Source: an uncultured Chloroflexia bacterium
GTDB lineage: Bacteria; Chloroflexota; Limnocylindria; QHBO01
Assembly: GCA_963767985.1 (NCBI GenBank)
Contig: CAVYGE010000006.1
Coordinates: 169 to 64,168, forward strand
Length of the DNA stretch: 64,000 bases
Reading direction: 5' to 3'
This document shows positions 3,253-48,090 of the stretch, piece by piece; within the stretch, counting starts at the first letter, position 1; the number at the start of each line of letters is the position of its first letter. The notes under the pieces were generated by a model that was not told where the DNA came from, did not search any database, and saw nothing but the letters and a program-made list of their open reading frames with translations. The translations under genes were made by a program, and so were the position numbers.

Positions 3253-4069
3253 GTGCACACCATCGACCTAACGGGCATCGCTGACTACACGTTCGTCGAG
3301 CGGCTGGGCCAGGGCAATCACGGCTGGTACTTCCGTGCGGCGCGGCCCCCTCGCCCTCGCGCACACGAATGCAGAGCACGTGGCCGTGAAGGTCTTCGGC
3401 CTCCTCAGCACCTCCGGCGCGGTAGACCGGGCCATACGTGGAGCTGGAGCTGTTCGCACGGGTTCCTTCGCCGCACCTTGCGCGGCTCTACGACGCCGGG
3501 CGGGAGGGCGAGCGGTTCTACTACGCCATGGAGCACTTTCCGATTGGCTCGCTCGCCGCGGCCGGGCCCGAGCTCGACCGTGACGGCCGCGTTGCCGCTG
3601 TGCCGCGACGCGGCCAGGGCCGCGCACGACTTGCACGAGAAGGGAATCGTGCACCGCGATATCAAGCCGTCGAACGTGATGCTCACAGACGCCGGCGCCA
3701 AGCTGTCCGACCTCGGGCTGGCCCACCTGCTCGCGCAGGGCCGCGGAGGTCACCAGCATGGCGGCGGAGGTGCAAATCCGGAGTACGTCGATCCGAGGCT
3801 GGTCGACGGGGCCGCGCCGTTCCGCCGGTCGGACATCTGGTCGCTCGGCGTGACCCTGCACTGGGCGCTCACCGGCGACTCGCTCTACGGCGACCTTCCC
3901 GACAACGACCCGCTGTTCGCGGCGCGGGAAGATGCGCTCGACGCCGCCGCAGGTCGCCGAGTCCGTACCGCCCGCGGCACGAGAGTTCGTGCTCGCATGC
4001 GTCGCAGCCGCTGGTGCGGACAGACCGGCGACTGCGGCCGAGGTGGCAATGGCGATCGAGGCGTTGTAG
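3253..4069 (+). CDS. Hanks-type Ser/Thr protein kinase 1 (frame breaks in N-lobe)
   Basis: GTG 3253. G-loop ERLGQGNHGWYF, VAVKVF (alternate frame), catalytic loop HRDIKPSNVML, LSDLGLA, SDIWSLGVTLHWALTG. Corrected C-terminus ..ATAAEVAMAIEAL with TAG at 4067-4069. Confidence 0.8.
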
Positions 4070-4140
4070 CGCCTCGTGGTCAGGTGGAGCGCGGCGGCCG
4101 GCGCAGGGGTGACCGCGGTAGTCTCCGCGAAGGAGGGCCA

Positions 4141-4970
4141 GTGGCCGCGACCACGGCGGAGGGGACGCTGGTGAGGCTTGCGGGGGACATCGGGATCGCC
4201 GGGATCACCAACGCGGCGGAGATCGCCCGAGGTGGGTCGGCCATCGTCTACCGCGCCTTCAGACGCGTTTCGACCGCGACGTCGCGGTCAAGGTCATCGC
4301 GTTCAGTGACGACGTCGTGCAACGCCGGTTTGCCCGGGAATGTCAGGCGATCGGTCGACTTCGGGACTGCGAACATCCTCCCGGTGCACCACTCCGGTCT
4401 CACCGCGAGCGGCAACCCCTACCTGATCATGCCGTTTCTCGCCCAGGGGTCACTGGAGACGCAGCGCCAGCAGCGCGGCCCGCTCGACTGGCGAGAGGTC
4501 GTCCCCATCGGCGTGAAGATCGCCACACCGCTCGAGCGAGCCCATGCGGCGGGCATCCTGCACCGCGACGTGAAGCCGGCGAACATCCTCATCGGCGGCG
4601 ATGGCGAGCCGTTGCTGCGCCTCGACTTCGGCCATCGTGTGCGACATGGATGCCACCCACTCCGTGGTGCGCCGGTCACTCCGTCATACGCGCCGCCTGA
4701 GGCATGGAGCGGCGGCGCGCCCACGCCGGCGCGCGATGTGTACTCGCTCGGCGCAACCTTGCATGCGCTCCTCCTCGGCCATCCGCAGTTCGGCGCGGTC
4801 GACGCCGCGAGCAATGCCGGCGACGTCGCCACGACAGTGGCGCAGGAGACGCCGTGGGACCTTCGCGCCCAGAAGGTGCCCAACGCCGTCGCCGCCGCGG
4901 TCGAGCACGCCATGGCCAAGGATTGGGGGCGCGACCCGCGTCGGCGGCGGCGTTTGCCGACGAGCTCGGT
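4141..4970 (+). CDS. Hanks-type Ser/Thr protein kinase 2 (frame breaks); no stop before the downstream vWA domain
   Basis: RBS GAAGGAGG lies 5 nt before GTG 4141. Motifs RGGSAIVYRAF, DVAVKVIA (shifted), NPYLIMPFLAQGSLE, HRDVKPANILI, LDFG, TPSYAPPE, DVYSLGATLHALL. The tail RPASAAAFADEL is reached after a frame switch at the tggggg run near 4921-4926. Confidence 0.8.
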
Positions 4971-5705
4971 GCGGGCGGCCGAGACGGCGCGGGCGGACAG
5001 GACACGCCGGACGATGAGGACAACCGCACGCTGCCGTCTCGCCCCGGTGGGCAGATCAGCAGCCGGCAGCTGCACTTCATCTGGATCGCCGACTGCTCGG
5101 GCTCGATGTCAGCGGGTGGAAAGATCCAAGCGCTGAACAACGCGATCCGCGAGACGATCCCACACCTGCGTGACATGGCGCGCCAGAACCCGTACGCGCA
5201 GATGTTCGTGCGGGCCATTGCGTTCTCGAGTGGAGTCACCTGGCACATCGCCGATCCCGTCCGCATCGAAGAGCTCAAGTGGCACGACCTCTCGGCCGGC
5301 GGGCACACCGACATGGGTGCGGCCCTGCGCGCGGTCGCCGACGGGCTCAAAGCGCCGCACATGCCCGAGCACGCGCTCCCGCCCGCACTCGTGCTCGTCT
5401 CCGACGGCCAGCCCACCGACGACTTCGCCAGCGGGCTCCAGGCCCTCCTGGCTGAGCCGTACGGAGCGAAGGCCGTGCGCCTGGCGATCGGCATCGGTCG
5501 CGACGCCGATCTCGAAGTCCTCGACCGGTTCATCTCCCATCCGGAGATCCGAGCGACCACCGCCAACAACCCGGAGCAGCTGGTGCGCCTGATCCGGTGG
5601 GCGTCGCGTGCCGTGTCGAGCTTGGCATCCGTCGTGCGCAATGGAGAGAGCGGGGTGAAGGTGCCGCAGCAGCCGACCGATCCGAGCGAGCACGACACGT
5701 GGTGA
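4971..5705 (+). CDS. TerY-like von Willebrand factor A (vWA) domain protein, possibly the C-terminal half of kinase 2
   Basis: MIDAS-type motif LHFIWIADCSGSMSAGGKIQALNNAI, then ..GGHTDMGAAL.., ..LVLVSDGQPTDD... Stop TGA 5703-5705. No ATG/GTG/TTG in this frame between the kinase tail and the MIDAS motif. Confidence 0.8.
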   Translation, partial: AGGRDGAGGQDTPDDEDNRTLPSRPGGQISSRQLHFIWIADCSGSMSAGGKIQALNNAIRETIPHLRDMARQNPYAQMFVRAIAFSSGVTWHIADPVRIEELKWHDLSAGGHTDMGAALRAVADGLKAPHMPEHALPPALVLVSDGQPTDDFASGLQALLAEPYGAKAVRLAIGIGRDADLEVLDRFISHPEIRATTANNPEQLVRLIRWASRAVSSLASVVRNGESGVKVPQQPTDPSEHDTW

Positions 5706-7321
5706 CCGCGACCGGAGCCGACCGCTGGCACGTGCTGGCTGCCACCGCGCTGGGCTCACGCCACGTCGCGACCGGCGCGCCGAACCAAGACGCGTTCTCG
5801 GTGGTACCGGGCGTGGGCGCCCAGGCGCAGTGCGTCGCCGCCATCGCCGACGGCCACGGCGGGGCTCGATACTTCCGCAGCGAAACGGGTGCTCGGTTGG
5901 CGGTCGACATTGCGGTCGACATCGGCGGTTCGCTCCTCGAGGCGCTCGACGCGCCCACCACCAAGAAGTCCGCGCTCGGGCTCGGAGACGCCGCCACTCG
6001 CATCGTCCAGCGATGGAGTGAAGCGGTGCGCGCCGATCTGGCTGCTCATCCCGTCGGCAACGATGAGCTGGCGGCCGCTGGCGTCGCACGCGAGGAGCAC
6101 GACGCCGACGATCTCCGCACCTACGGCGCCACCCTGCTGCTCGCCGTGATGGGTGGCGCCGGGCTTGTCCTGCTCCAGATCGGCGACGGCGACATCGTCG
6201 TCGTCGACCTGACAGGCAGGGTGACCGAGCCGGTGCCGGGCGATCCCGCGCTCGTCGCGGGTGAGACCACGTCGCTCTGCCTGCCCGACGCGGCGAGCAG
6301 CTTTCGGAGCATGGTGCTCGACACCACCGGTGGCCGGGCCCCGGTGCTCGTGCTGTTGTCCACTGACGGCTTCGGCAACTCCTACGCCGACCGGGCGGCG
6401 TTCCACTCGTTCTGCACCGGTGTGCTCGAGCGAGTCGCGGAACGTGGGGTGGCGTCGGTCGAGGCCGATCTGCCCAGCTGGATCGCAGAGAGCGCACGGG
6501 TCGCCGGCGACGACGTCACGGTGGTCGCACTGCTCGATACCGCTTCAGCACCCGCGTCCGCGAAGGCCGCGGCGCGGGCCGCGGCGGACCGCACCGTCGC
6601 GGTGCCGACAACCGCGGCGGCGCCGCCCGCGGGTGCGCCGCCGCCGAGCGCTCCTCCGCGCCAAGCGAGGGCCGCACCGTCACCCAGGGGTTCGGGCGCC
6701 GGCGCCGCACCGCCGTGGACCATCGTCGCGGTCGCCGCGATCGTCCGCGCTCTTGCTCGGGGTCGTCGTTGGGCGAGCGACGAAGAAGACAAACACGGCC
6801 GCCACCACCGCCACCACCACGCCGCCAGCGACCACAACCGCCGGGGCTGGCGCCGGCGCGACGACGGTGTGGCTGCCGACAGCACGAGGCTTGATCCAAG
6901 TCGAGCCCGGCGCCCCTCCCGCGCTCTCGTCCCCGGCTTGGCCAACGCGCCAACTGATGCCGTGACCGTGCGTGGTGCGCTCTGGCTGGCCGCCGGACGG
7001 TTGGTGTTTCCGCAGGGGCAACGGGGCGACGCGCTTGAGTTCCCGGCCACAGTCACGAGCGTCGGCACCGACGGAATCGATGTGTGGGTCGCGCTCGCCG
7101 ACGGTGGCGTCTTTCGCATCGATGCCGCCCAGCGCTGCACCAGCTACGCAGGTGCCGTCGCCGCGACCACGGTCACCACCACGACGAGCCAGCCGCCCGT
7201 GGCAACGGGAGGCCAACCCTCCGGTGGTGCGCCGTCGCAGAGCCCGAGTCCGACGACGGTGGCTCCGGCGGCAGTGGCGCCCAACGAGCAGGTGGCCGAG
7301 AACCCATGTCCGGGCAGCTGA
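5702..7321 (+). CDS. PP2C-family Ser/Thr phosphatase with Pro/Ala linker, probable TM helix and C-terminal ectodomain
   Basis: GTG 5702 overlaps the vWA stop (GTGA). Motifs NQDAF, IADGHGGARY, LLQIGDGDIV, LLSTDGFGNS, DDVTVV. A hydrophobic stretch (WTIVAVAAIV / ALLLGVVVG) is visible only if two compensating frame shifts between about 6745 and 6960 are assumed. Confidence 0.8.
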   Translation: MTATGADRWHVLAATALGSRHVATGAPNQDAFSVVPGVGAQAQCVAAIADGHGGARYFRSETGARLAVDIAVDIGGSLLEALDAPTTKKSALGLGDAATRIVQRWSEAVRADLAAHPVGNDELAAAGVAREEHDADDLRTYGATLLLAVMGGAGLVLLQIGDGDIVVVDLTGRVTEPVPGDPALVAGETTSLCLPDAASSFRSMVLDTTGGRAPVLVLLSTDGFGNSYADRAAFHSFCTGVLERVAERGVASVEADLPSWIAESARVAGDDVTVVALLDTASAPASAKAAARAAADRTVAVPTTAAAPPAGAPPPSAPPRQARAAPSPRGSGAGAAPPWTIVAVAAIVRALARGRRWASDEEDKHGRHHRHHHAASDHNRRGWRRRDDGVAADSTRLDPSRARRPSRALVPGLANAPTDAVTVRGALWLAAGRLVFPQGQRGDALEFPATVTSVGTDGIDVWVALADGGVFRIDAAQRCTSYAGAVAATTVTTTTSQPPVATGGQPSGGAPSQSPSPTTVAPAAVAPNEQVAENPCPGS

Positions 7322-7358
7322 TGCGCGATGGACAACATGAAGGCGAAGGCGAGCATTG

Positions 7359-9221
7359 ATGAGTGAGCTGCGAATCGAGCTCGGCGGCCAGCGGATCACG
7401 GTCGCGCCCGGCGCGGTGGTGACGATTGGACGCGAGCCCGACCGCGACATCCGATCCGACAACCCTGCGGTCTCGCGCCGCCACGGCGAGGTGCAGTACG
7501 ACGGCGTCAGCTGGGTGTACAGCGACGCCAACAGCACCGGTGGCACCTACCAGGGAGGACAGCGCGTCACCCGGGTCGTGCTCACCGGGCCGGCCGAGCT
7601 GTGGCTCGGCGCACCGTCGGAGCCAGGCGACCGGCTGCGCCTCGAGCCGGTAGGCGTAGGCGGCGGCGGGCGGGCCCCGCTCGATCGCACGGTCGGGCCG
7701 ACGCCCGCCGGCGACACTTCGCTGCGTCTGCGCTTCGGTGTGCACGACGGTGTCTACAGCCCGGGCCAGGTCATCACCGTTGGGCGTGCACCCGAGTGCG
7801 ATCTCACCACCGACAACCCGCTCGTATCCGGGCACCACGCTCGCATCCTGTGGTCGGGGGGCCAGTGGACGCTCGAGGATGCGGGGAGCAAGCGCGGCAC
7901 CTACGTCGGTGGGCGCAAGGTCCGCAGCACCCGTCTGGGTGGGGCCATGACCGTGTGGTTCGGGCCACCCGAGGCGGGCGAGAAGCTCACTGTCCTCACC
8001 GGGGGCGAGGCGCCGCGCACACCGGCGTCGGTTCTCCGCCCGTCGGTGGTGGCCGGTGCCGCGCTCGTGCTCGCCGCCGTGGCCGTGCTGGTGGTGGTGT
8101 TCCTCGGAGGCGGAGACGATGACGAGCTCGACGTTGCTGCGCTGCGGCGAGCCACTGTGCTGGTCTCGGAGGAGGCGAGCGACCCGACGAGCTGGGGCAG
8201 CGGCAGCATCGTGTCGGCCGATGGACTCGTGCTCACCAATGCCCACGTTGCCGCGCCGGCGGCGCCCGGCCGCGGCGTCAGCCAGCGCGAACCTGTGTCG
8301 GAGCGGAACCCGGCCCGCCTCTACATCTACGTGGTGGAGGACGAGGACGCACCGGCGCGGCCGGCGTACACGGCCAAGGTGATGGCGGCCGACGGGTACC
8401 TCGACTTCGCGGTCCTGCAGATCGACCGGACCGCGGCCGGAGATCCAGTCGACCGCAAGAAGCTCAAGCTCCCTGCGGTCAAGCTCGGTGATTCGCGCGC
8501 GCTCAAGGTCGACGAGGACCTGCTCGTTCTGGGCTTTCCTGGGATCTCGGAAACACAATCGATCAACGTCTCCCGAGGGGTGGTCTCCAGCTTCCTCGTC
8601 GATGAGCGGGTTGCCGGTCCCCGCTCATGGATCAACACCGACGCCACCATCAGCCCGGGGAACTCAGGGGGTCTGGCCGCCGATCACCGCGGTCGGCTGG
8701 TGGGCGTCCCGACCCTGGTTGTCGCCGAGCGGTCCGGAATCCCGCTGACGATCGGCCGGCTCCGGCCCATCCACCTCGCGCAGCCGGTCATCGACGCGGC
8801 CCGCCGCGGCATCGCGTACGACCAGAACAAGTGGGTCAAGCAGCCGACCGGGGACGAGAGCTTCGACTACGAGGGTGTTCTCGACACCGACGCGGAGCAG
8901 TGCGAAGACCGTGCGTTCGTCGGCTACCGCTCGGGCACGCCGGTCATCAACACCCAGCTGCGGTACTCCGGCATGACTGAGGACCAAGAGGTCTTCTTCG
9001 GATTGCACCAGGTCCGGGGCACGACCCTGGTGCTCGTCGACAGCGTCGCGGCGCGGTGGGAGGACTCTGATGCTGCGGGCTGCCTGTTGGTGGCGTTCCG
9101 CAACATCGGGACGGGCGGTGTGCAACGGCCGTTCCCCGATGGCACGTACAAGGTGCTTGTGCAGGCCGGCCCCAACTACGAGACCCAGCTCGCCGAAGGC
9201 GACGTCGACGTGGGTGGGTGA
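7359..9221 (+). CDS. FHA-FHA-TM-trypsin-like (S1, Trypsin_2-type) serine protease with extra C-terminal domain; intact ORF
   Basis: Two FHA cores (VTIGREPDRDIRSDNPAVSRRHGEV...; ITVGRAPECDLTTDNPLVSGHHARI...). TM helix VVAGAALVLAAVAVLVVVFLGG. Catalytic triad contexts LTNAHV, DFAVLQI, ISPGNSGG. About 150 aa of unassigned C-terminus. Confidence 0.85.
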   Translation: MSELRIELGGQRITVAPGAVVTIGREPDRDIRSDNPAVSRRHGEVQYDGVSWVYSDANSTGGTYQGGQRVTRVVLTGPAELWLGAPSEPGDRLRLEPVGVGGGGRAPLDRTVGPTPAGDTSLRLRFGVHDGVYSPGQVITVGRAPECDLTTDNPLVSGHHARILWSGGQWTLEDAGSKRGTYVGGRKVRSTRLGGAMTVWFGPPEAGEKLTVLTGGEAPRTPASVLRPSVVAGAALVLAAVAVLVVVFLGGGDDDELDVAALRRATVLVSEEASDPTSWGSGSIVSADGLVLTNAHVAAPAAPGRGVSQREPVSERNPARLYIYVVEDEDAPARPAYTAKVMAADGYLDFAVLQIDRTAAGDPVDRKKLKLPAVKLGDSRALKVDEDLLVLGFPGISETQSINVSRGVVSSFLVDERVAGPRSWINTDATISPGNSGGLAADHRGRLVGVPTLVVAERSGIPLTIGRLRPIHLAQPVIDAARRGIAYDQNKWVKQPTGDESFDYEGVLDTDAEQCEDRAFVGYRSGTPVINTQLRYSGMTEDQEVFFGLHQVRGTTLVLVDSVAARWEDSDAAGCLLVAFRNIGTGGVQRPFPDGTYKVLVQAGPNYETQLAEGDVDVGG

Positions 9222-10556
9222 CGAACGCCATGTTGCAGGAGGGTGCCGACGTCCAGCTTCTCGGATGGGGCACGAACGCGTCGATCACGAGGTGGCTGGG
9301 CGAGGGCAGCGAGGGGACTGTCTGGGAGGTCGAGGTGGGCGGCGCCGCCGAACCGCTCGCGCTCAAGTGGTATCACCCCGAGCGGGCTACGCCGCTCAAG
9401 CACCGCACGATTGAGCTGCTCATCGAGCGGGGGAACCCACACGAGCGATTTCTGTGGCCGCTCGATCTCGCGACCAGCCGGTTGAGCCCGGAGTTCGGGT
9501 ATGTCATGCCGCTGCGCGCCCCTCAGTACAAGGGTCTCGTCGAGCTGATGTGGCGCGACCGGGACGAGATCAAGCAGGTGACGTTCGCGTCGCTGGCCAC
9601 CCTTGGGCTCGAGCTGGCGCATGCGTTCCTGCTCCTACACAACCAGGGCCTCTGCTACCGCGACATCAGCTTCGGCAACGTGTTCTTCGACCCCGCCACC
9701 GGGTCGACCCTCGTCTGCGACAACGACAACGTCGGCATCAACGGCAGCAGCGACTCCGACGTGGCCGGCACGTTCCGGTTCATGGCACCGGAGATCGTGC
9801 GTGACCGCAACGTGGTGCCGAGCACCGAGACCGACCTGCACTCGCTCGCGGTGCTGCTGTTCCACGTGTTCATGGTCCACCATCCCTTGGAGGGCAAGCA
9901 GGCGCTGCAGTATCCCGTGCTCGACGAGATCGCCATGGAACAGCTCTTCGGGCGGAAGCCAGTGTTCGTCTGGGATCCCGACGACCGCAGCAACGAGCCG
10001 GTCCCCGGTCTGCACGACAACGCCATTCGGTACTGGGGCATCTACCCGCAGTTCCTGCCGCGATCGGTTCACCGAGGCGTTCACCGTCGGACTGCACGAC
10101 CCGGGGAACGGGCGGGTCCGCGACGGCCAGTGGCGGGCGGAGATGGCCCGCCTGCGCGACGCGATCGTTCGGTGCCAGGCATGCGGCGCCGAGGCGTTCT
10201 ACGACGACGCCTCGGCGAAGCCGCTGACGTGCTGGGTCTGCTTCAAGCCGATCCGCCTGCCCCCATTGCTGCGCATCGGCGATCGGGCGCTCATGCTCAA
10301 CGCGGGCACGCGCGTCTACAGCCACCACCTCAGACTCGACTACGACTTCACCACCGCGATCGCCGATGTGGTCGAGAAGCCCGACGCACCCGGCACCTGG
10401 GGTCTGCGCAACCTCGGACGCGACGCATGGTCGGCGGACGTCGGCGACCGCAAGGCGTTGCCCATCGCCCCAGGCCGGGCCGTGCAGATCGGGCCGCGGA
10501 CTCGCGTGTCGTTCGGGCCCGTGCGGGGCCGCTTCGAGTTCCCCGGCACAAGCTGA
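9218..10556 (+). CDS. atypical protein kinase-like protein with Zn-ribbon and FHA-like C-terminus (one frame break near 10050)
   Basis: GTG 9218 overlaps the protease stop (GTGA). Motifs LGEGSEGTVWEV, ALKWY, YRDISFGNVFF (HRD to YRD), VCDNDNV (DFG to DND), FMAPE. After the frame switch: CQACG..x..CWVC, then LRIGDRALMLNAGTRVYSHH...WGLRNLGRDAW. Confidence 0.7.
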
Positions 10557-10587: not shown

Positions 10588-11733
10588 TCACTTTTCGAAG
10601 CCGCCAGACGTGTTCCACAAGTCGAAGACGATGTTCTTGTTGCCGTCTTTGCGGAACGCCACGATCGTGATGTTTGGGTCATCGAGTGTGAACACGAGCC
10701 ACGCGCCGGCGGCGTTGCCGTGCACGAGCCGCCGGCCGATCGGACGCCCGGGGTCGGACGTGAAGATCCAGTCCCGCTCGCACGAGGTCGTGCGGCACGT
10801 GTCGTTCGATCCAGTGTTGAACGGTACGCCGCTCTGTTGGACGCGGGCGGTGTAGTCCGCGGACTGGGCGCCGTCGCTGCCGAACTTGTAGAGCCATGCG
10901 GTGGTGTAGGCCTCGGCGGTGCAGCTGATGGCGCCGTTCGCCCCGGTCGGGAGCGCAGTCTCCTGCATGCACCTGGGGAACCGGGGCGGGTCGCCGACAA
11001 CGTGGTTGAGGAGCTCTTGCTCGACAACGGACGGGTTCCAGCTCGGGCGGGGTGCGGCGGTGGTGCGGGTCGTGGTGGTGGTGCGCGATGTGCTGGTGGT
11101 GTCGACCACGGGGGTGGTCGTGTCCGTCGCGATCTCGGGATCGGGACCGAGGATCGCGTACGCGATCACGCCGATGGCGACCAGACTGAGCACGGCGAGG
11201 GCCGCGAGCAACCCGACGGGGCGGCGAGGCGGGGGCTCGTCTGGTTGGCGTTGCTGGCCCCAGTCGCCACCCCAGTGACCCGGCTGCTCCGGCGGGCGCG
11301 GTTGCTGAGGCGGTGGGACCTGAGTCGAGCCGACCCCGCCGTCCGGCGGTCCCTGCGGTCCTCGCGGCCGTTGCCCCGGCCCCGGGCCCGGTGGCGGCCC
11401 GGGGCGCGGTGGTGAAGCCGCCGCACTGCCAAGGGCGACGGCCCACGTGCGCACGGCCCAGTCGGCCATGTCGGCGCTGAGTCCGCGTTGCTGCACCAGG
11501 CGCGCCGTGAGCTGCTCGATGCGGGGCCCGATCGGTGTCGATGAGCGCATGAGCTCGCCTGGCACCTGCTCTTCGACGGCGCCGAGGAGGACGGCGACGT
11601 GGGGCCCGCCCTCGGGCCACACGTCGCGGAACAGCGCGGCGCAGCGGCGAGGGTCGTCAGCGAGCCCGGCGCCGTACTGGGCGAGCAGCTCGCGTAGCGT
11701 CGCGGCAGCCTGAGCGGGATCGGTCGGCGGCAT
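10588..11733 (-). CDS. membrane protein, paralogue 1: conserved cytoplasmic head, Pro-rich linker, TM, Thr-rich stalk, 4-Cys ectodomain
   Basis: Intact 381-aa ORF. ATLRELLAQYGAGLADDPRRCAALFRDVWPEGGPHVAVLLGAVEE...; TM GLLAALAVLSLVAIGVIAYAIL; ectodomain with 4 Cys. Confidence 0.7.
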   Translation of the reverse strand: MPPTDPAQAAATLRELLAQYGAGLADDPRRCAALFRDVWPEGGPHVAVLLGAVEEQVPGELMRSSTPIGPRIEQLTARLVQQRGLSADMADWAVRTWAVALGSAAASPPRPGPPPGPGPGQRPRGPQGPPDGGVGSTQVPPPQQPRPPEQPGHWGGDWGQQRQPDEPPPRRPVGLLAALAVLSLVAIGVIAYAILGPDPEIATDTTTPVVDTTSTSRTTTTTRTTAAPRPSWNPSVVEQELLNHVVGDPPRFPRCMQETALPTGANGAISCTAEAYTTAWLYKFGSDGAQSADYTARVQQSGVPFNTGSNDTCRTTSCERDWIFTSDPGRPIGRRLVHGNAAGAWLVFTLDDPNITIVAFRKDGNKNIVFDLWNTSGGFEK

Positions 11734-11764: not shown

Positions 11765-12898
11765 TCACTTCGTGAACGTTCCGTTCAAGAACCACATGTC
11801 GTAGACGATCTGCTTGTTCCCGTCGTTGCGAAACGCGACGATCGTGATGTTGAGGTTGTCGAGTGTGAGGACCAGCCACGTGCCCGTGGCATCCCCGTGG
11901 ATCAGTCGTCGCCCGATCGTCACCTGCTGGCCGCCGTGGCGCCAAGGCCCTTCGCATCCCGACCGAGTGCATGCCTCGTTGCCGACGCCATAGTCGCGCG
12001 GCAGTCCACTCTGCTCAACGCGCGCCGTGTAGTCGGCCGCGTGGAGATCATCGCCACCGAACTTGTAGAGCCAGGCGCGCGTATAGGTCGGCGAGGTGCA
12101 CGTGATGGCAGCGGTGGCACCAGTTGGCACTCCTGGTGCGCGCTTGCACGCCGGAGACTGAGGTGGATTGCCGACTACGTGGGCCAGCAGCTCGTTCTCG
12201 TCTTGAGTCCACACGGGCGCTGCCGGTGGTTTGACGACGGTGGTGGTCGTACTCGTGCTCGTGGTCGTGGTCGGATCGAACGGCTCAGTGGTCGTGTCGG
12301 TCGCGACCTCTGGATCCTTGCCACCGAACGTCGCGAACGCGATCACGCCGATGGCGATGAGACCGAGCGCAGTGAGGGCCACGATCAAGCCAACGGGGTG
12401 TTTGGGCTGCCGATCGACGGGCCGGCGCTCTGGCGGCCACTCGCCGCCCCAGTGCCCGGGTTGCTGTGGCTGGCGAGGTGCCTGCGGCGGTGGAACCTGC
12501 GTCGACGCGACCCCACCGGCCGGTGGTCCCTGGGGCCCAGGAGGGCGTTGCCCCGGCCCCGGTAGCGGCCCGGGGCGCGGTGGCGCCGGTGCCGCGCGGC
12601 CGAGGGCGACGGCCCACGTGCGCACGGCCCAGTCGGCCATGTCGGTGCTGAGCCCGCGTTGTTGGGCCAGACGCGCCGCCAGCTGCTCGATGCGGGGTCC
12701 GATCGGCGTCGACGAGCGCATGAGGTCGCCGGGGACTTGCTCCTCGACGGCCCCGAGCAGCACGGCCACGTGCGGCCCGCCTTCGGGCCACACGTCGCGG
12801 AACAGCGCGGCGCAACGTCGAGGATCGTCGGCCAGTTCCGCGCCGTACTGCGCGAGCAGCTCGCGCAAAGTCGCGGCGGGATCGGTGGGGGGCGGCAT
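11765..12898 (-). CDS. membrane protein, paralogue 2 (tandem duplicate of 10588-11733)
   Basis: ATG at 12898 chosen by alignment with paralogue 1 (MPPPTDPAATLRELLAQYGAELADDPRRCAALF...). Same domain order and the same 4 Cys positions. Confidence 0.7.
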   Translation of the reverse strand: MPPPTDPAATLRELLAQYGAELADDPRRCAALFRDVWPEGGPHVAVLLGAVEEQVPGDLMRSSTPIGPRIEQLAARLAQQRGLSTDMADWAVRTWAVALGRAAPAPPRPGPLPGPGQRPPGPQGPPAGGVASTQVPPPQAPRQPQQPGHWGGEWPPERRPVDRQPKHPVGLIVALTALGLIAIGVIAFATFGGKDPEVATDTTTEPFDPTTTTSTSTTTTVVKPPAAPVWTQDENELLAHVVGNPPQSPACKRAPGVPTGATAAITCTSPTYTRAWLYKFGGDDLHAADYTARVEQSGLPRDYGVGNEACTRSGCEGPWRHGGQQVTIGRRLIHGDATGTWLVLTLDNLNITIVAFRNDGNKQIVYDMWFLNGTFTK

Positions 12899-13027: not shown

Positions 13028-14017
13028 CTAGGCGTGAACGTGTTGTGTCCAGCAGTGCAGATGCACGAAGCGGCCACAGACGTCGCACCGCTGCACGGTG
13101 GCGAGCATCGGTTCGCGGCAGACCGGGCAACCGGTGTCGACCTCCTCATGGCTGCCGCCGCCACCGAGGGGGATGGTGGGCGCGGCCGCAAGGGTCGCAG
13201 GCTCGTCGAGCGGGCGACCGAGGAGCGGCGCGAGCACCGTCAGGGCGGCGGCGGCGAACGCGTCGAGGTTCGACAGCTCGGGGTGCTGGCCGAAGTTCTC
13301 GTGGAGCCCACTCGGCGCGAAGAGGCAGAAGTAGAGGTCGTCGTGGCTGTCAGGCATGCCCTCGAGCGCGGCGATGGCAACGATCTGCCCTTGGTCGTAT
13401 GCGACGCCAAGCGCGCTGTAGCTGATTGGCCCATCGGCAACGGGAGCGGTCCAGATCTCGACCCACGAACGAGCCGGCAAGGCCGGGGCATCGTCCGCCT
13501 CGATGGTGTCGACGATTCGCCAGCTGCGCAGGCGCGGCGTGGCACCGCTGGTCGCGGCTCTGGTCGCGACGTAGGCCTGGAACGGGCCGTGCTGGGCGGC
13601 CTGCGTGCGGCCCGAGTCGATACCGGCGCGTGCGTCGGCGCGACGGCGCAGGACTGACTCTGTCTGGGCCCGCACGAGCGTGGGCCACCCCTCTGGTCGC
13701 GAAGGCATCGGACCGAACCGGCTGGTTGCGCCATCGTCGGTGTACAGCTCGGTGAAGCTGTCGCGGTCGCGCGTGTTCCGCGATGCACAGCGTCGACCAG
13801 CGGCCATCGGGGTTGACCAGCGCCCACCCGTCGGTGAACCGGCCGGATGGTTCCACGATCTCGCCGAGCACCAGCACGTGCTCCCCTGGATCGGTGAGGC
13901 CGGGGTGCTCGAAGCGCTCGACGACGCGAAGGGCAGACACCCCCACGTCGGCGTTCCGGGCCCGCAACGCCGCGAGCTCCGGCGGAGGTTCGGAGGACTT
14001 GCGGCGGAGAAAGCTCA
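13028..14017 (-). CDS. hypothetical protein with C-terminal Cys/His zinc-finger-like motif (one frame break near 13770)
   Basis: Probable GTG at about 14017 (VSFLRRKSSEPPPELAAL...). C-terminus ..GCPVCREPMLATVQRCDVCGRFVHLHCWTQHVHA. I do not recognise a family. Confidence 0.45.
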
Positions 14018-14029
14018 CTCGGGGGAACG

Positions 14030-14470
14030 CTACGCGTCGCCGCGCTTCCCGGCGAAGAACTCGGTGAGCAGCGCCGCCGCCTCGTCGGCTCGGACGCCGG
14101 CCGTGATCGGCACCTCGTGGTTGAGCCGCGGGTCGGCGCACAGGTTGTAGAGCGAGCCGCACGCCCCGGCCCGGAGGTCGGCGGCGCCGAACACCAGGCG
14201 CCCCACCCGCGCGGCGAGGAGGGCGCCGGCGCACATGGCGCAGGGCTCGAGCGTGACGACCAGGGTTGCCCTGACGAGCCGCCATCCGTCGCCTATGACG
14301 GCCACGGCATCTCGCATGGCCAGGATCTCGGCGTGGGCGGTCGGATCGCCCGTTCGCTCGCGCTCGTTGTGGCGACGGGCGACGACCTGCCCGTCGACCA
14401 GCACCACCGCCCCGATGGGCACGTCGTCGTGGTCGAGGGCGGCGGTGGCTTCCTCGAGTGCTAGCGCCAT
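14030..14470 (-). CDS. tadA: tRNA-specific adenosine deaminase
   Basis: 146 aa from ATG 14470. Deaminase zinc motifs HAEILAM and TLEPCAMCAGAL, with the conserved GAADLRAGACGS. Confidence 0.9.
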   Translation of the reverse strand: MALALEEATAALDHDDVPIGAVVLVDGQVVARRHNERERTGDPTAHAEILAMRDAVAVIGDGWRLVRATLVVTLEPCAMCAGALLAARVGRLVFGAADLRAGACGSLYNLCADPRLNHEVPITAGVRADEAAALLTEFFAGKRGDA

Positions 14471-14715
14471 TGCCTCCGAATCGCCCAGAATGCCCGTCGT
14501 CACCCCGTCGACGGTAACCAACCCAAGCTTCGGTCCAAGACGCGAAACCCGGCAGGACTGAGCGTGAACGTCAGCGAACTCTTGACCCAACAAGTCGCAG
14601 GTAGGCCCATCGGGCGGCGCTGGGGCCGTCCGGTTGGCTGGGCGGCGGCTCGGCCGAAGCTGGCGGCTCAGCACGGTGCAGGCAAGACCGGCTGATGCCG
14701 GAAGGAGGCTGATCG

Positions 14716-15918
14716 GTGGCGCAGATCCGAAGCGGACGACACGTTCGCGTGCGGACCCTGCTCCCAGGGATCGTCGCCGTCGCCACCGTTGTCCTGCTGC
14801 ACGCGGTGGCCCCGCTGTCGAGCCCGACGACCCACCTCGCCGGCGCCGGACCCGCGTTCAGCGCCAGCGACCAGAGCCAATCGGCCCAGGCTGGACGCGA
14901 TCTGGCGGCCGCCGCCGGCCAGGCGGCCGACGGCTCGGCCACCAGCACGCCGGCCACCGCCGCCGGCCCCACGCTGGTCCCGACCCCCGATCCCACGGCG
15001 CCGGCCGCCCTCGCCGCGCCGACGCCACCGCCCGCGGCCAAGGGCGAGCGGTTCGAGGCGCCCCCCACCGACCCGGTCGTCCTCGCCGAGCCCTCCTCGC
15101 CGCCGCCACGGCCGAGCAGTCGAGCGGCGGCCTCGGGTCGTGGCGTGTGGGCGGTCGTGGTCGGCGTGGACGACTACCCGGGAAGCAACGACCTTCAGTC
15201 GGCCGTCAACGACGCCAACGACGTCGACGCCGCGCTCGGGCTCTACCAGGTGCCGGGCACCCAGCGGCTCCTGCTCCGCAACGGCTCAGCCCGATCGGGC
15301 GACATCCTGGCCGCCGTCGACTGGCTGGTGGCCAATGCCGGCCCCGAGGCCACGGCGGTGTTCTTCTACGCGGGCCACGTCCGCCAGGTGTCGCGCGGCG
15401 TCGAAGGGATCGTCGCATCCGACGGGCGCGTCGTCACCGACGCCACGTTGGCGTCGCGGCTGCGCAACCTCGCGGCCCGCCAGACCTGGATCACGATCGC
15501 CGGGTGCTTTGGCGGTGGCTTCACCGAGGTGCTGGCGCCGTCGCGCATCCTCGTTGCCGCCGCGCCGGCCGGCGTCTACGCCTACGAGAACGAAGGCTTC
15601 GGTCGCTCGTACCTCGTCGAGTACATGGTGCGCAGGGCGATGCTCGCCGGCTACGCGCCCGGCTCGGTGCAGGAGGCCTACGCCTGGGCGTACAACCAGC
15701 TCCAGCGCGATTACCCCAACCGCATGCCGGTGGCCTACGACCAGTCGGGCAGTCCGATCCGCCTCGGTCCCTCCGGCCCGCCGAACCCGGCGCCGCCGCC
15801 TCCGGCCCAGCCCGGCCAACCGCAACCGACGTCGCCGCCCCCGCCGACGACAACCCCGCCCACGACGACGCCACCCAGCTGCCGGGGCATCGTGGTCATC
15901 GGTCACGGCTGCTCGTAG
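14716..15918 (+). CDS. exported caspase-fold (clan CD, C14-like) peptidase with Pro/Thr-rich C-terminal tail
   Basis: RBS GGAAGGAGG precedes GTG 14716. N-terminal hydrophobic segment LLPGIVAVATVVLLHAV. VVVGVDDYPGSNDLQSAVNDANDV, His context FFYAGHV, Cys context TIAGCFGGGF. Tail PPPPAQPGQPQPTSPPPPTTTPPTTTPPSCRGIVVIGHGCS. Confidence 0.6.
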   Translation: MAQIRSGRHVRVRTLLPGIVAVATVVLLHAVAPLSSPTTHLAGAGPAFSASDQSQSAQAGRDLAAAAGQAADGSATSTPATAAGPTLVPTPDPTAPAALAAPTPPPAAKGERFEAPPTDPVVLAEPSSPPPRPSSRAAASGRGVWAVVVGVDDYPGSNDLQSAVNDANDVDAALGLYQVPGTQRLLLRNGSARSGDILAAVDWLVANAGPEATAVFFYAGHVRQVSRGVEGIVASDGRVVTDATLASRLRNLAARQTWITIAGCFGGGFTEVLAPSRILVAAAPAGVYAYENEGFGRSYLVEYMVRRAMLAGYAPGSVQEAYAWAYNQLQRDYPNRMPVAYDQSGSPIRLGPSGPPNPAPPPPAQPGQPQPTSPPPPTTTPPTTTPPSCRGIVVIGHGCS

Positions 15919-17815: not shown

Positions 17816-17972
17816 CTCCTTGATCTCAGCTGCCGGCCGTCCCAGGACGCGCCTCGGATTTGGTCCTGATTGTAGGCCAGCCCGCGGGATCGAAGAAGGG
17901 TGTTACCACCCATTTCGAGCGGGGTGCGTCCACCCCAGGCTCGCGACGTGAGGCTCGCTTAGAGCGAGAGAG

Positions 17973-18057
17973 CGGAGGGAGTGGGATTTGAACCCACGGT
18001 GACTTGCGCCACACACGCTCTCCAGTCGTGCCGATTCGGCCGCTCTCGCATCCCTCC
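17973..18057 (-). tRNA. tRNA-Ser (anticodon GGA), long variable arm, CCA not encoded
   Basis: Reverse complement GGAGGGATGCGAGAGCGGCCGAATCGGCACGACTGGAGAGCGTGTGTGGCGCAAGTCACCGTGGGTTCAAATCCCACTCCCTCCG. 7-bp acceptor stem, TTCAAATCC T-loop, anticodon loop CTGGAGA (one A/G mismatch at the stem base). Confidence 0.8.
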
Positions 18058-18104: not shown

Positions 18105-18230
18105 GCCGGCTCGTGCGGCGGCCGGGTCCTGCGCAACGGGACGCCGTGAACCGAGTCAGGGCCGGAAGGCAGCAGCTCTCAGCGGATAGTCCTGTGTGCC
18201 GCAGTCAGCCTGGCCGCCGCACCGGCCGGC
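18105..18230 (+). ncRNA. ffs: signal recognition particle RNA (small bacterial SRP / 4.5S-type)
   Basis: Long hairpin: 5' GCCGGCTCGTGCGGCGGCCGGG pairs with 3' CCTGGCCGCCGCACCGGCCGGC. Conserved domain IV string GUCAGGGCCGGAAGGCAGCAGC. Sits between tRNA-Ser and dnaX, the usual position. Ends are approximate. Confidence 0.75.
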
Positions 18231-19943: not shown

Positions 19944-19954
19944 GAGCTCACCCC

Positions 19955-20297
19955 GTGTCGAATCAGCCCGATCTGAGCGGCCTCCTGAAGCAGGCGCAGC
20001 AGATGCAGGAGCAGCTGCACGAGCGTGCAGGCCGCGGCCGCGGCGGCCGTCGTCGAGGGGCACTCCGGTGGTGGCGCGGTGCGCGTCGAGGTGTCCGGCA
20101 CGATGGAGTTCCGCGCCGTGCACATCGACCCGAAGGTCGTCGACCCCGACGATGTGGAGATGCTCGAAGACCTCGTCCTCGCCGCGCTGCACGATGCCAC
20201 CGCAAAGGTGCACGAGCTGTCGGCGCAGGCAATGCCCGACCTCGGTGGTCTGGGCGACCTGGGGGGCCTCGGCGGCCTCCTCGGTTCGCCAGGGTGA
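19955..20297 (+). CDS. ybaB: YbaB/EbfC-family nucleoid-associated protein (one frame break)
   Basis: GTG 19955. [21 protein letters not shown], then (shifted) ..[50 protein letters not shown]. Confidence 0.85.
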
Positions 20298-23505: not shown

Positions 23506-23591
23506 GCCTGGGCCTCCTGGAGTTGGCAGCGAGCGAGCGCGACCAGTGTACGGCGCGGCTGCGGTGGACTCTCCGGGCGACCCCGTCGGCG

Positions 23592-47100: not shown

Positions 47101-47439
47101 ATGCGAGCGTGGGTCGCCGTCGCGGGAGTGGCGGTGGTGATGGTCATCGTCATCGGCGGCTTCGTGGTGACGCGTCCGACATTGCGGGCAACCTCGAACC
47201 TCGATCCCGACGTGACCATTCGGTGCGAGGCGGCGGCGGGATCGACGGAGGTCTGTCGCGCCTGGGGAGACGAGCTGCTGGCGGCGGGCGCGCCGTCGAC
47301 GACGTTCGAGATGCAGGACGTGGCTCAGCTCGTCATCCGGCGGCCGCTGTTCGGCCTTGCCTCGAACTGCGAGGTCGACTACGTCCTGGGGCGCTACCCG
47401 GACGACCCCGCCTGGATCGAGGAGGCACCCTGCCGATGA
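47101..47439 (+). CDS. small membrane-anchored hypothetical protein
   Basis: ATG 47101. MRAWVAVAGVAVVMVIVIGGFVV TM helix, then a 4-Cys ectodomain. Confidence 0.5.
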   Translation: MRAWVAVAGVAVVMVIVIGGFVVTRPTLRATSNLDPDVTIRCEAAAGSTEVCRAWGDELLAAGAPSTTFEMQDVAQLVIRRPLFGLASNCEVDYVLGRYPDDPAWIEEAPCR

Positions 47440-47463
47440 CGTTCCTGGTGGAGCTTCTGAGCT

Positions 47464-47994: not shown

Positions 47995-48090
47995 CGTCTG
48001 CTCCCCGATGGCGCCTGCGCCGTCGCGTCGCCCCTACGCGGGCGAGGTAGCGTCGAAGCCGGAGACGGGGTCAGTATCCGCTGGCGACTG

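What the first reader, a model, noticed from the sequence alone, without database searches (positions are those of the whole stretch)
7359..9221. Intact FHA-FHA-TM-S1 protease with an unassigned 150-aa C-terminal domain
This is one of the longest uninterrupted ORFs in a window full of frame breaks.

Topology read from the sequence:
- Two cytoplasmic FHA domains.
- One TM helix (VVAGAALVLAAVAVLVVVFLGG).
- An outward-facing trypsin-fold domain with all three catalytic contexts (TNAHV, DFAVL, GNSGG).
- A further domain (..AYDQNKWVKQPTGDESFDYEGVLDTDAEQCEDRAFVGY...GTYKVLVQAGPNYE..) that I cannot assign.

Phosphothreonine readers on the inside joined to a protease on the outside imply inside-out control of proteolysis. 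That is unusual compared with PDZ-regulated HtrA-type enzymes.
Basis: partly seen in the sequence, partly recalled or inferred. Interest (0 to 1): 0.7.

Follow-up and report, generated by a model that had tools for sequence, protein, structure and literature searches.

The report
Phosphothreonine-reading membrane protease, outward-facing
This intact gene encodes a membrane-anchored HtrA-like serine protease that faces outward, carries two phosphothreonine-reading FHA domains inside the cell, and sits in a conserved kinase/phosphatase gene cluster; the design is catalogued and widespread in actinobacteria, but nobody has studied what it does.

Summary
Window 7359-9221 (+) is an intact 620-aa ORF with this layout: FHA, disordered linker, FHA, one TM helix, HtrA-type S1 protease, 136-aa C-terminal domain.

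- **Catalysis:** the triad H296/D349/S436 is kept in 133-134 of 135 FHA-bearing relatives.
- **Topology:** charge distribution and a conserved Cys pair put the protease outside the membrane.
- **C-terminal domain:** it is now assigned as an Ig-like beta-sandwich (pLDDT 87). It has no Pfam model and occurs almost only after this protease clade. It replaces the PDZ domain of HtrA enzymes.
- **Spread:** the architecture is not rare. I found over 100 sequence clusters, mainly Nocardioides-like actinobacteria. "FHA-FHA-Tryp" was already listed in a 2008 survey, but no functional study turned up.
- **New context:** 10 of 14 judgeable FHA-bearing loci, this window included, encode a TerY-P-like triad next to the protease (small vWA, PP2C, Ser/Thr kinase with zinc ribbon). 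None of 69 FHA-less relatives do. Every triad locus also carries an undescribed ~100-aa helical domain, either fused to the protease or on neighbouring single-pass membrane proteins.

Phosphorylation-gated ("inside-out") control of an ectoprotease is the best-supported reading, but it is inferred. The ORF's intactness among frame breaks is unremarkable.

The parts
7359..9221 (+). Whole gene: FHA-FHA-TM-HtrA-like protease-Ig-like CTD, 620 aa, stop TGA at 9219-9221
   Evidence: ORF. Pfam domains. The exact protein is in NCBI/ENA on a 931,794-bp contig, with no name attached. Full-length AF2 model has mean pLDDT 83.6.
7359..7655 (+). FHA domain 1 (residues 1-99), cytoplasmic
   Evidence: Pfam FHA. 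Motif residues G24, R25, S39, H42, S59 and G62 are kept in 22-24 of 24 homologues; the canonical Asn of the 'NG' motif is not conserved. AF2 shows a beta-sandwich with pLDDT 85-95.
7656..7712 (+). Inter-FHA linker (residues 100-118), predicted disordered, contains Thr residues
   Evidence: pLDDT is below 50. Its length varies widely among homologues. 86 of 121 two-FHA relatives have a T-[VLIMET]-[VLIMT] motif just before FHA2; this is only a weak lead.
7713..8003 (+). FHA domain 2 (residues 119-215), cytoplasmic
   Evidence: Best Pfam FHA stretch is 139-201. G142, R143, S157, H160 and G180 are invariant in 24 homologues. It matches an Rv1747 FHA domain in the PDB at E 4.6e-7.
8046..8111 (+). 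Single transmembrane helix (residues 230-251)
   Evidence: It is the only segment with a 19-mer Kyte-Doolittle mean above 1.6; the maximum is 3.06. AF2 predicts a helix at 235-250. Flanking charges across 24 relatives follow the positive-inside rule for N-in/C-out.
8133..8807 (+). HtrA-type (S1C-like) serine protease domain (residues 259-483). Catalytic codons: H296 at 8244-8246, D349 at 8403-8405, S436 at 8664-8666
   Evidence: Trypsin_2 at E 2.8e-23. Best PDB sequence matches are DegQ/DegP/HtrA at about E 1e-11. All top 50 Foldseek hits are HtrA/Deg proteases, with DegS-deltaPDZ at TM 0.76-0.80. The triad is kept in 133-134 of 135 FHA-bearing relatives.
8811..9218 (+). C-terminal Ig-like beta-sandwich domain (residues 485-620) with conserved Cys pair: C515 at 8901-8903, C575 at 9081-9083
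   Evidence: No Pfam hit at E<=1. AF2 gives a 7-strand sandwich, pLDDT 87.1 and pTM 0.81. Foldseek finds only generic Ig-like matches; the best is 6oe6 at E 3.4e-4. A profile search finds 279 representative clusters among 1.84 billion, almost all following this protease. The Cys pair is present in 200 of 212 sequences.
5031..5705 (+). Stand-alone ~220-aa vWA protein (TerY-like position in the triad)
   Evidence: Weak Pfam VWA_2/VWA hits. It is 54-56% identical to vWA genes beside FHA-proteases in L081, L082, L087 and L088. It is related to the vWA that heads a vWA-PP2C operon on a Deinococcus plasmid.
5597..7321 (+). PP2C phosphatase ORF. The PP2C_2 domain lies at about 5753-6478. The true start is probably near 5700. 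The C-terminal half is low-complexity with a weak coding signal
   Evidence: PP2C_2 at E 2e-34. Homologous to the PP2C genes of L081, L082 and L087. The frame HMM calls 6538-7364 ambiguous.
9230..10556 (+). Ser/Thr kinase with C-terminal zinc ribbon and a beta-rich domain. It starts 8 nt after the protease stop. It is split by a 1-nt insertion near 10050-10053
   Evidence: Pkinase at E 2e-13. Aligned with the intact L081, L082 and L087 kinases, it keeps ALK, YRD..N, DND, APE and CxxC...CWxC. Removing one C restores YPQFLRDRF.
3253..5040 (+). Two further Ser/Thr kinase domains upstream of the vWA gene; the first has a frame break near 3928-3932
   Evidence: Pkinase has two stretches at E 4e-39. 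Homologues occupy the same position in Nocardioides loci L013, L016 and L020.
10588..11733 (-). NTD-TM protein 1: ~100-aa cytoplasmic helical domain (NTD), Pro-rich linker, TM, Thr-rich stalk, Cys-containing ectodomain
   Evidence: Translation. NTD HMM at E 4e-46. No Pfam, NCBIfam or PADLOC family.
11765..12898 (-). NTD-TM protein 2, a paralogue of the previous gene (NTD 92% identical, ectodomain 53% identical)

Best explanation
The gene encodes a single-pass, N-in/C-out membrane protein. Its extracytoplasmic part is an active HtrA-type serine protease. An Ig-like, probably disulfide-bonded beta-sandwich follows the protease where HtrA enzymes have a PDZ domain. The cytoplasmic part is a tandem of phosphothreonine-binding FHA domains joined by a disordered linker.

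The protein is one output of a TerY-P-like phospho-switch encoded around it. That switch comprises a small vWA protein, a PP2C phosphatase and a Ser/Thr kinase with a zinc ribbon, plus extra kinases.

Proposed mechanism (inferred, not shown):
1. The kinase writes pThr marks on itself, on the inter-FHA linker, or on partner membrane proteins. The PP2C erases them.
2. The FHA tandem binds these marks. That recruits or clusters the protease at a particular membrane site.
3. Clustering brings the ectodomains into the oligomeric, active state typical of HtrA proteases, so that extracellular substrates are cut only when the cytoplasmic switch is on.

Likely partners or substrates are the neighbouring single-pass proteins. 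They share a ~100-aa cytoplasmic helical domain (NTD) that in other species is fused directly to the protease.

What is shown: domain identities, conservation of the catalytic and pThr-binding residues, topology indicators, and the gene linkage. What is inferred: the direction of signalling, the activation mechanism and the substrates.
For: **Domains and catalytic residues**
- Pfam, PDB sequence matches and Foldseek agree on FHA x2 plus an HtrA-type protease.
- The triad is kept in 133-134 of 135 FHA-bearing relatives.
- The FHA GR and SxxH residues are invariant or nearly so in both domains.

**Topology**
- There is one TM segment.
- Across 24 relatives, K+R is 107 inside against 32 outside, and D+E is 7 against 62.
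- The CTD Cys pair is present in 200 of 212 sequences.
- FHA-less relatives have the layout TM-protease-CTD.

**Gene linkage**
- The window order is kinases, vWA, PP2C, protease, kinase-ZnR, all on one strand. Only 8 nt separate the protease stop from the kinase start.
- The same vWA, PP2C and kinase-ZnR genes lie within 10 kb of the protease in L002, L006, L009, L013, L016, L020, L081, L082 and L087. With the window, that is 10 of 14 judgeable FHA-bearing loci.
- None of 69 FHA-less homologue loci have the triad.

**NTD co-occurrence**
- The NTD is present in every triad-bearing locus and is fused N-terminally to 24 FHA-proteases.

**Other FHA-bearing outputs in the same clusters**
- These include an Rv1747-like FHA-FHA-ABC transporter (L082), FHA-FtsK/SpoIIIE ATPases with WXG100 genes (L081, L087; L009 and L088 also have FtsK/SpoIIIE and WXG100) and EmbR-like FHA regulators (L009, L087, L088).
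- This fits a hub in which several FHA proteins read one kinase.

**Precedents**
- Rv1747 is positively regulated by PknF phosphorylation through its FHA domains. Its phospho-acceptor threonines lie in the inter-FHA linker (PMC3138270 and PMC8339232, abstracts).
- Fha binding to pThr on TssL activates type VI secretion (PMC3953482).
Against: - No experiment or co-variation analysis links pThr binding to protease activity.
- The canonical Asn of the FHA 'NG' motif is not conserved in either domain, so ligand specificity may be atypical.
- Three FHA-protease loci with full flanks (L004, L019, L021) lack the triad, so the link is not obligatory.
- In this window the kinase-ZnR gene and an upstream kinase carry frame breaks. 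If those are real mutations, the switch may be defective in this organism.
- PADLOC models gave no hit to the vWA or PP2C proteins.
- The foundational 2012 TerY-P paper could not be read.
Confidence: 0.55

Rival explanations
1. It is a housekeeping envelope quality-control protease, like the membrane-anchored HtrA/PepD enzymes of actinobacteria. The FHA domains only tether it to, or make it a substrate of, Ser/Thr kinases. Its proteolytic activity is constitutive and not gated by phosphorylation.
For: - The protease domain is closest to the HtrA/DegS/PepD enzymes.
- Many relatives work without any FHA domain: 85 proteins have the layout (TM-)protease-CTD.
- Three FHA-bearing loci lack the triad.
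Against: - pThr-binding residues are strongly conserved in both FHA domains.
- The triad is found only beside FHA-bearing versions: 10 of 14 loci against 0 of 69. Both points argue that the FHA domains matter for function.
Confidence: 0.18
2. Signalling runs outside-in. The ectodomain (protease plus Ig-like domain) senses unfolded or foreign extracellular proteins. Its oligomeric state is passed through the membrane to the FHA tandem. The tandem then sequesters or releases the phosphorylated kinase or phosphatase and so sets the state of the cytoplasmic switch.
For: - The kinase-ZnR has no TM segment or obvious sensor domain of its own, so the system needs an input.
- HtrA proteases such as DegS are themselves stress sensors (established knowledge).
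Against: - Full conservation of the catalytic triad argues that cleavage, not just binding, is selected.
- The vWA protein and the NTD membrane proteins are alternative candidates for the input.
Confidence: 0.1
3. It is a processing or maturation protease of a WXG100/FtsK-SpoIIIE (type VII-like) secretion apparatus, functionally analogous to the mycosin MycP of ESX systems. The FHA domains dock it to the FHA- or phospho-regulated secretion ATPase.
For: Four of 16 FHA-protease loci (L009, L081, L087, L088) place the gene next to an FtsK/SpoIIIE ATPase and WXG100 genes. The ATPase itself carries FHA domains in L081 and L087.
Against: - The window contains no FtsK/SpoIIIE or WXG100 homologue within 64 kb.
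- Most triad-linked loci also lack them.
- The protease is S1, not subtilisin-like.
Confidence: 0.1
4. It is the effector of an anti-phage defence system of the TerY-P type. Infection triggers the kinase, and the protease then damages the envelope or processes a toxin (abortive infection).
For: - TerY-P-like triads protect against phages (Gao et al. 2020, as cited in PMC11090510).
- The protease domain weakly matches the PADLOC model 'RT-Protease_XI' at E 1e-12.
- A related vWA-PP2C module sits among mobile and defence-like genes on a Deinococcus plasmid.
Against: - No PADLOC model hit the window's vWA or PP2C proteins.
- The defence versions carry an OB fold on the kinase rather than a zinc ribbon.
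- The window locus lies among ordinary chromosomal genes.
- An outward-facing protease is an odd effector against an intracellular phage.
Confidence: 0.07

Closest known systems
HtrA/Deg family membrane-anchored proteases (E. coli DegS; M. tuberculosis PepD Rv0983 and HtrA)
   Same: - Chymotrypsin-fold protease domain with a His-Asp-Ser triad.
- N-terminal TM anchor with the protease outside the cytoplasm.
- Best sequence and structure matches: DegQ at E 7e-12, DegS-deltaPDZ at TM 0.76-0.80, PepD.
   Different: - No PDZ domain; an Ig-like beta-sandwich with a conserved Cys pair takes its place.
- It carries a 215-residue cytoplasmic FHA tandem that no characterised HtrA has.
Rv1747 of M. tuberculosis (FHA-FHA-ABC exporter regulated by the kinase PknF)
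   Same: - N-terminal cytoplasmic tandem FHA domains with a disordered, Thr-containing linker, fused to a membrane machine.
- Encoded next to a Ser/Thr kinase.
- The window FHA tandem aligns colinearly, at 36% identity over 190 residues, with the FHA tandem of an Rv1747-like transporter. In L082 that transporter is the gene immediately after the protease.
   Different: - The output here is an extracytoplasmic protease, not an ABC exporter.
- The partner kinase is a soluble zinc-ribbon type within a vWA/PP2C triad.
TerY-P triad (TerY-like vWA + PP2C + Ser/Thr kinase with C-terminal zinc ribbon; Anantharaman, Iyer and Aravind 2012, as described in PMC11090510)
   Same: - The window encodes a ~220-aa stand-alone vWA, a PP2C_2 phosphatase and a kinase with a CxxC...CWxC ribbon, contiguous with the protease.
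- A published association of such triads with WXG100/FtsK operons matches L009, L081, L087 and L088.
   Different: - No PADLOC model matched the vWA or PP2C. I did not check that the library contains TerY-P models.
- The experimentally tested defence versions carry an OB fold instead of the ribbon.
- The FHA-protease and NTD components are not part of the published definition, as far as I could read.
Type VI secretion threonine-phosphorylation pathway (PpkA, PppA, Fha; TssL-pThr)
   Same: The logic is the same: kinase and PP2C set a pThr mark, and an FHA protein reads it to switch on an envelope-spanning machine (PMC3953482).
   Different: There the FHA reader is a soluble adaptor and the output is a secretion apparatus.
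'FHA-FHA-Tryp' architecture in the survey of prokaryotic serine proteases (Tripathi and Sowdhamini 2008, PMC2605481)
   Same: The domain order was already catalogued; the example was NP_811686.1 of Bacteroides thetaiotaomicron.
   Different: That survey gave one example with no topology, C-terminal domain, genomic context or function. The window protein is only 39% identical to its nearest relative on record.

Membership tests
HtrA (S1C) protease family | Chymotrypsin-fold protease domain with a His-Asp-Ser catalytic triad | tested here: met
   Trypsin_2 at E 2.8e-23. H296, D349 and S436 are invariant. All top 50 Foldseek hits are HtrA/Deg proteases.
HtrA (S1C) protease family | One or more C-terminal PDZ domains | tested here: not met
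   No PDZ family appears in Pfam or NCBIfam. The C-terminal domain is modelled as a 7-strand Ig-like sandwich.
HtrA (S1C) protease family | Trimer-based oligomer with activity coupled to oligomeric state | not testable with these tools
   Only monomer models could be made.
FHA phosphothreonine-binding domain | FHA fold with conserved Gly-Arg and Ser-x-x-His pThr-contact motifs | tested here: met
   Pfam FHA at E 2.5e-30, two stretches. G24/R25/S39/H42 and G142/R143/S157/H160 are conserved in 22-24 of 24 homologues. AF2 pLDDT is 85-96.
FHA phosphothreonine-binding domain | Conserved Asn of the 'NG' motif in the beta6-beta7 loop | tested here: not met
   Position 61 is Q/L/R/S/A/G and position 179 is R/S/A/G/T across homologues. 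The window has G61 and R179.
TerY-P triad | Adjacent genes for a small TerY-like vWA protein, a PP2C phosphatase and a Ser/Thr kinase | tested here: met
   vWA at 5031-5705, PP2C_2 at 5597-7321, kinase at 9230-10556. The same set recurs in 9 related loci.
TerY-P triad | Kinase fused at its C-terminus to a zinc ribbon | tested here: met
   CQAC...CWVC follows the kinase domain and is conserved in the L081, L082 and L087 homologues. In the window it is reached only after correcting a 1-nt frameshift.
TerY-P triad | Recognition by the defence-system HMMs (PADLOC) or a named TerY match | tested here: not met
   No PADLOC hit for the vWA or PP2C at E<=0.01. I did not check that the library contains TerY-P models. 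NCBIfam gave no TerY name. Plasmid homologues are annotated only as 'VWA domain-containing protein'.
   91 of 254 collected relatives share exactly this order. The window protein aligns end to end with 23 of them at 30-41% identity.

The most novel reading that the evidence does not exclude
The locus is a previously undescribed five-part actinobacterial signalling system. A TerY-P-like vWA/PP2C/kinase switch controls, through the FHA tandem, an HtrA-like 'site-1' ectoprotease. That protease cleaves the ectodomains of neighbouring single-pass proteins carrying the shared NTD. This would be phosphorylation-gated ectodomain shedding, an inside-out counterpart of the DegS-RseA pathway.

The NTD may be distantly related to the cytoplasmic anti-sigma domain of RskA-type anti-sigma factors. 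That rests on a marginal PDB profile hit at E 0.029. If it holds, cleavage would release a transcription factor.
Probability: 0.12. Interest if true: 0.75.

Novelty: new member of a known kind. Interest (0 to 1): 0.42.

Why it matters
Bacterial Ser/Thr kinase signalling has few known outputs that act outside the cell. A protease fused across the membrane to pThr readers would let a cytoplasmic phospho-switch decide when extracellular proteins are cut.

The family is widespread in soil actinobacteria and untouched experimentally. This analysis gives it a concrete, testable setting:
- a defined partner kinase and phosphatase;
- candidate partner membrane proteins that share a new adaptor-like domain;
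- links in some species to type VII-like secretion and to Rv1747-like exporters.

For the window protein alone the gain is modest. It is one divergent member of an already catalogued architecture.

Tried and rejected
- **Exact-protein contig look-up** for the window protein found nothing on record. The source organism is therefore unidentified, beyond roughly 70% GC and actinobacterial-type neighbours.
- **PADLOC** gave no TerY-P call. It returned only generic kinase hits and a weak RT-Protease_XI hit to the protease. I reject filing the locus as a recognised defence system.
- **NCBIfam** gave only sub-threshold partial hits (FhaB, DegP/HtrA), all far below curated cut-offs.
- **The C-terminal domain as a PDZ or CarboxypepD_reg domain** is rejected. 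There is no Pfam hit at E<=1. In relatives, PF13620 is an additional domain downstream of the CTD.
- **Foldseek on the CTD** gave only generic Ig-like matches with TM scores of about 0.4-0.6, so no specific structural homologue can be named.
- **A word-indexed homologue search with the NTD** found nothing. Pfam found nothing. The RskA hit is marginal and is kept only as a lead.
- **A type VII-like secretion context in the window** was looked for and not found.
- **The 2012 TerY-P paper** (PMC4104200) is not held. I cannot say whether it already notes the FHA-protease link.
- **An over-size Pfam census call** failed. I replaced it with custom HMMs in the sandbox.
- **The Thr motif in the inter-FHA linker** (86 of 121) was counted with a loose regular expression that may overlap the first FHA2 strand. 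I treat it as suggestive only.
Full report
**Observation**

It runs from 7356 (TTG) or 7359 (ATG) to 9221 on the + strand and gives 620 aa from the ATG. A Shine-Dalgarno-like AAGGCGAG lies just upstream. The window has about 70% GC, so long spurious ORFs abound. This one, however, has the right codon-position GC pattern (GC3 0.86, GC2 0.51) and unambiguous domain hits: FHA twice (E 2.5e-30) and Trypsin_2 at residues 280-450 (E 2.8e-23). The exact protein exists in NCBI/ENA on a 931,794-bp contig, but carries no name.

**Anatomy**

A full-length AlphaFold2 model built on 24 homologues has mean pLDDT 83.6. It resolves these parts:

| Part | Residues | Confidence |
|---|---|---|
| FHA1 | 1-99 | pLDDT 85-95 |
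| Linker | 100-118 | low (pLDDT <50) |
| FHA2 | 119-215 | pLDDT 82-96 |
| Juxtamembrane stretch and helix | helix 235-250 | low |
| Protease domain | 259-483 | pLDDT mostly 80-97 (one 10-residue block at 70) |
| All-beta C-terminal domain | 485-620 | pLDDT 76-94 |

- Only one segment is hydrophobic enough for a TM helix: residues 230-251, with a maximum 19-mer Kyte-Doolittle mean of 3.06.
- The protease domain is HtrA-like. The best PDB sequence matches are DegQ, DegP, AlgW, HTRA1/2 and M. tuberculosis PepD, at E 7e-12 and weaker.
- All 50 top Foldseek hits are HtrA/Deg proteases. DegS-deltaPDZ and HTRA1 protease domains score TM 0.75-0.80.
- There is no PDZ domain.

**Conservation**

A search of 5.8 billion clustered proteins returned 140 relatives. 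The nearest is only 39% identical. In an alignment of 24 full-length relatives:
- H296, D349 and S436 are invariant.
- The pThr-contact residues of FHA2 (G142, R143, S157, H160) are invariant.
- Those of FHA1 (G24, R25, S39, H42) are nearly invariant.

Over the larger set, the triad is retained in 133-134 of 135 FHA-bearing relatives. The canonical Asn of the FHA 'NG' motif is not conserved in either domain, so peptide specificity may be atypical. These are active proteases under purifying selection, joined to FHA domains that keep the phosphate-binding core.

**The C-terminal domain**

- It matches no Pfam family even at E<=1.
- Modelled alone with 22 sequences, it folds confidently into a seven-strand beta-sandwich (pLDDT 87.1, pTM 0.81).
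- Foldseek against the PDB finds only generic Ig-like sandwiches. The best is an uncharacterised Leptospira protein, 6oe6 (E 3.4e-4, TM 0.52-0.62). RbmA, PA1606 and Ig V domains follow.
- A profile of the domain, searched against 1.84 billion representative proteins, found only 279 hits at E<=1e-3.
- In my architecture census of 254 collected proteins, the domain occurs almost exclusively right after this protease. I counted 91 FHA-FHA-TM-protease-CTD and 85 (TM-)protease-CTD without FHA. Locus titles place the FHA-less forms mainly in Chloroflexota.
- Two cysteines, C515 and C575, are present in 200 of 212 CTD sequences.

So the domain is a clade-specific Ig-like module, probably disulfide-bonded, that sits where HtrA enzymes carry PDZ domains.

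**Topology**

Four independent indicators agree on N-in/C-out:
1. Across 24 relatives, the 15 residues before the TM hold 107 K/R and 7 D/E. The 15 after it hold 32 K/R and 62 D/E.
2. The conserved Cys pair lies on the C-terminal side.
3. FHA-less relatives begin with the TM anchor, like ordinary exported proteases.
4. FHA domains need kinase-generated pThr, which is cytoplasmic (established knowledge).

No dedicated topology predictor was available.

**Genomic context**

The window order, all on the + strand, is:
- two kinase domains (3253-5040);
- a ~220-aa vWA protein (5031-5705);
- a PP2C_2 phosphatase (5597-7321);
- the protease (7359-9221);
- 8 nt later, a Ser/Thr kinase with a C-terminal CxxC...CWxC zinc ribbon and a beta-rich tail (9230-10556).

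This is the composition given for the TerY-P triad: a TerY-like vWA, a PP2C, and a kinase fused to a zinc ribbon (PMC11090510).

The link is conserved. I took 80 homologue loci from species-representative genomes and five more from contig look-ups.
- The vWA, PP2C and kinase-ZnR genes lie within 10 kb of the protease in L002, L006, L009, L013, L016, L020, L081, L082 and L087. With the window, that is 10 of 14 FHA-bearing loci that have enough flank to judge.
- L088 has the vWA only.
- L004, L019 and L021 have none.
- None of 69 FHA-less loci has the triad.

Some clusters add further FHA-bearing proteins:
- an Rv1747-like FHA-FHA-ABC transporter directly after the protease (L082);
- EmbR-like FHA regulators (L009, L087, L088);
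- FtsK/SpoIIIE ATPases with WXG100 genes (L009, L081, L087, L088), FHA-bearing in L081 and L087.

The window itself has no FtsK or WXG100 homologue.

**A further conserved component**

Two paralogous genes lie convergent to the kinase (10588-11733 and 11765-12898, - strand). Each encodes a ~100-aa helical N-terminal domain (NTD), a Pro-rich linker, a TM helix and a Cys-containing ectodomain. An HMM of this NTD gives three results:
- It hits a neighbouring gene in every triad-bearing locus.
- It hits the N-terminus of 24 FHA-proteases, the 737-807-aa forms such as those of Nocardioides terrigena and N. eburneiflavus.
- L088 has both a fused copy and a separate one.

The same domain is thus fused to a core component and also borne by variable neighbouring proteins. 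This pattern resembles the effector-associated-domain logic described for other conflict and signalling systems (PMC7159879). It suggests homotypic or shared-partner recruitment. The NTD has no Pfam family. Its only PDB profile hit is marginal: anti-sigma-K factor RskA, E 0.029.

**Mechanism**

*Shown:* an active-looking HtrA-type ectoprotease is tethered to cytoplasmic pThr readers and is genetically coupled to a kinase/phosphatase/vWA module and to NTD proteins.

*Inferred:*
- The kinase writes pThr marks that the FHA tandem binds, and the PP2C erases them.
- Binding then recruits or clusters the protease and switches on cleavage outside.

The closest worked precedent is Rv1747. PknF phosphorylates threonines in the inter-FHA linker and positively regulates that transporter (PMC3138270 and PMC8339232). 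The type VI Fha/TssL-pThr switch is a second precedent (PMC3953482). The NTD membrane proteins are the most obvious candidate partners or substrates, by analogy with DegS and RseA. That step is speculative.

Rivals are scored separately in the report. They are a constitutive quality-control protease with scaffold-only FHA domains, outside-in sensing, a type VII-associated maturation protease, and a TerY-P-type defence effector.

**Comparison and novelty**

- The protein works like a membrane-anchored HtrA but fails the PDZ criterion, so I do not file it as a canonical HtrA.
- The FHA-FHA-Tryp architecture was listed in a 2008 survey (PMC2605481). Relatives are annotated only as 'FHA domain-containing protein' or 'putative serine protease PepD'.
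- Two full-text searches found no functional study.
- The window protein is therefore a divergent new member of a catalogued but uncharacterised family.
- I could not read the 2012 TerY-P paper, so part of the context may already be described.

**Caveats**

- The kinase-ZnR gene is split by a single extra C near 10050-10053. Removing it restores YPQFLRDRF, matching YPQFMRDLF in a homologue.
- An upstream kinase also shifts frame.
- A crude frame HMM suggests many more such breaks across the window. Both halves of the broken kinase are otherwise well conserved. This pattern looks more like assembly indel error than decay, but I cannot tell without the reads.
- Either way, the protease's intactness is not informative.

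Noticed in passing
window 9230-10556 (+), break near 10050-10053: The Ser/Thr kinase-zinc ribbon gene directly downstream of the protease is split into two frames by a single extra C in CTGCCGCGAT. Deleting it restores YPQFLRDRF, as in intact homologues. Both halves are otherwise conserved, which suggests an assembly indel or a very recent mutation.
   Followed up: yes
window 3253-5040 (+), break near 3928-3932: Two further Ser/Thr kinase domains lie upstream of the vWA gene. The first switches frame relative to its Nocardioides homologues.
   Followed up: partly
window 10588-11733 (-) and 11765-12898 (-): These are two paralogous single-pass membrane proteins. Their ~100-aa N-terminal helical domains are 92% identical and their ectodomains 53% identical. 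This undescribed domain recurs in every triad-bearing FHA-protease locus and is fused to 24 FHA-proteases. A profile hit to the anti-sigma factor RskA is marginal (E 0.029).
   Followed up: partly
whole window: A crude coding-frame HMM finds 45 same-strand frame switches in 64 kb. Many are gene junctions, but several short out-of-frame segments look like true frameshifts, for example 1466-1578, 13777-14034, 19943-20023, 23610-23928 and 60617-60723. That is consistent with an error-prone long-read assembly or with widespread pseudogenes.
   Followed up: partly
window 14030-14674 (-) and 14716-15918 (+): A MafB19-like/CMP-type deaminase gene lies divergent from a caspase-like Peptidase_C14 gene.
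   Followed up: no
window 17972-18057 (-), 18120-18218 (+), 52948-53023 (-): tRNA-Ser(GGA), bacterial small SRP RNA and tRNA-Gly(UCC).
   Followed up: no
window ~47400-53100: This stretch has lower GC (0.65 against about 0.70) and a weak coding-frame signal, and it ends at tRNA-Gly. It contains an ECF-type sigma factor gene (48872-49555, +). It may be an island or simply a region of different composition.
   Followed up: partly
window 22327-24705 (-): One ORF joins NAGPA and cell-wall-binding (CWB2) domains to a complete thiolase. This is probably two genes run together by the absence of an in-frame stop or by a frame error.
   Followed up: no
window 32589-36497 (+): A 1302-aa protein made of about nine Big_3_5 bacterial Ig-like repeats.
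   Followed up: no
L082 11921-14461; L081 14794-19479; L087 9872-15681; L088 3913-11491: In relatives, the FHA-protease gene sits next to other FHA-bearing proteins. These are an Rv1747-like FHA-FHA-ABC transporter, FtsK/SpoIIIE (type VII-like) ATPases with WXG100 genes that carry FHA domains in L081 and L087, and EmbR-like FHA transcription regulators. This suggests multi-output FHA hubs around one kinase module.
   Followed up: partly
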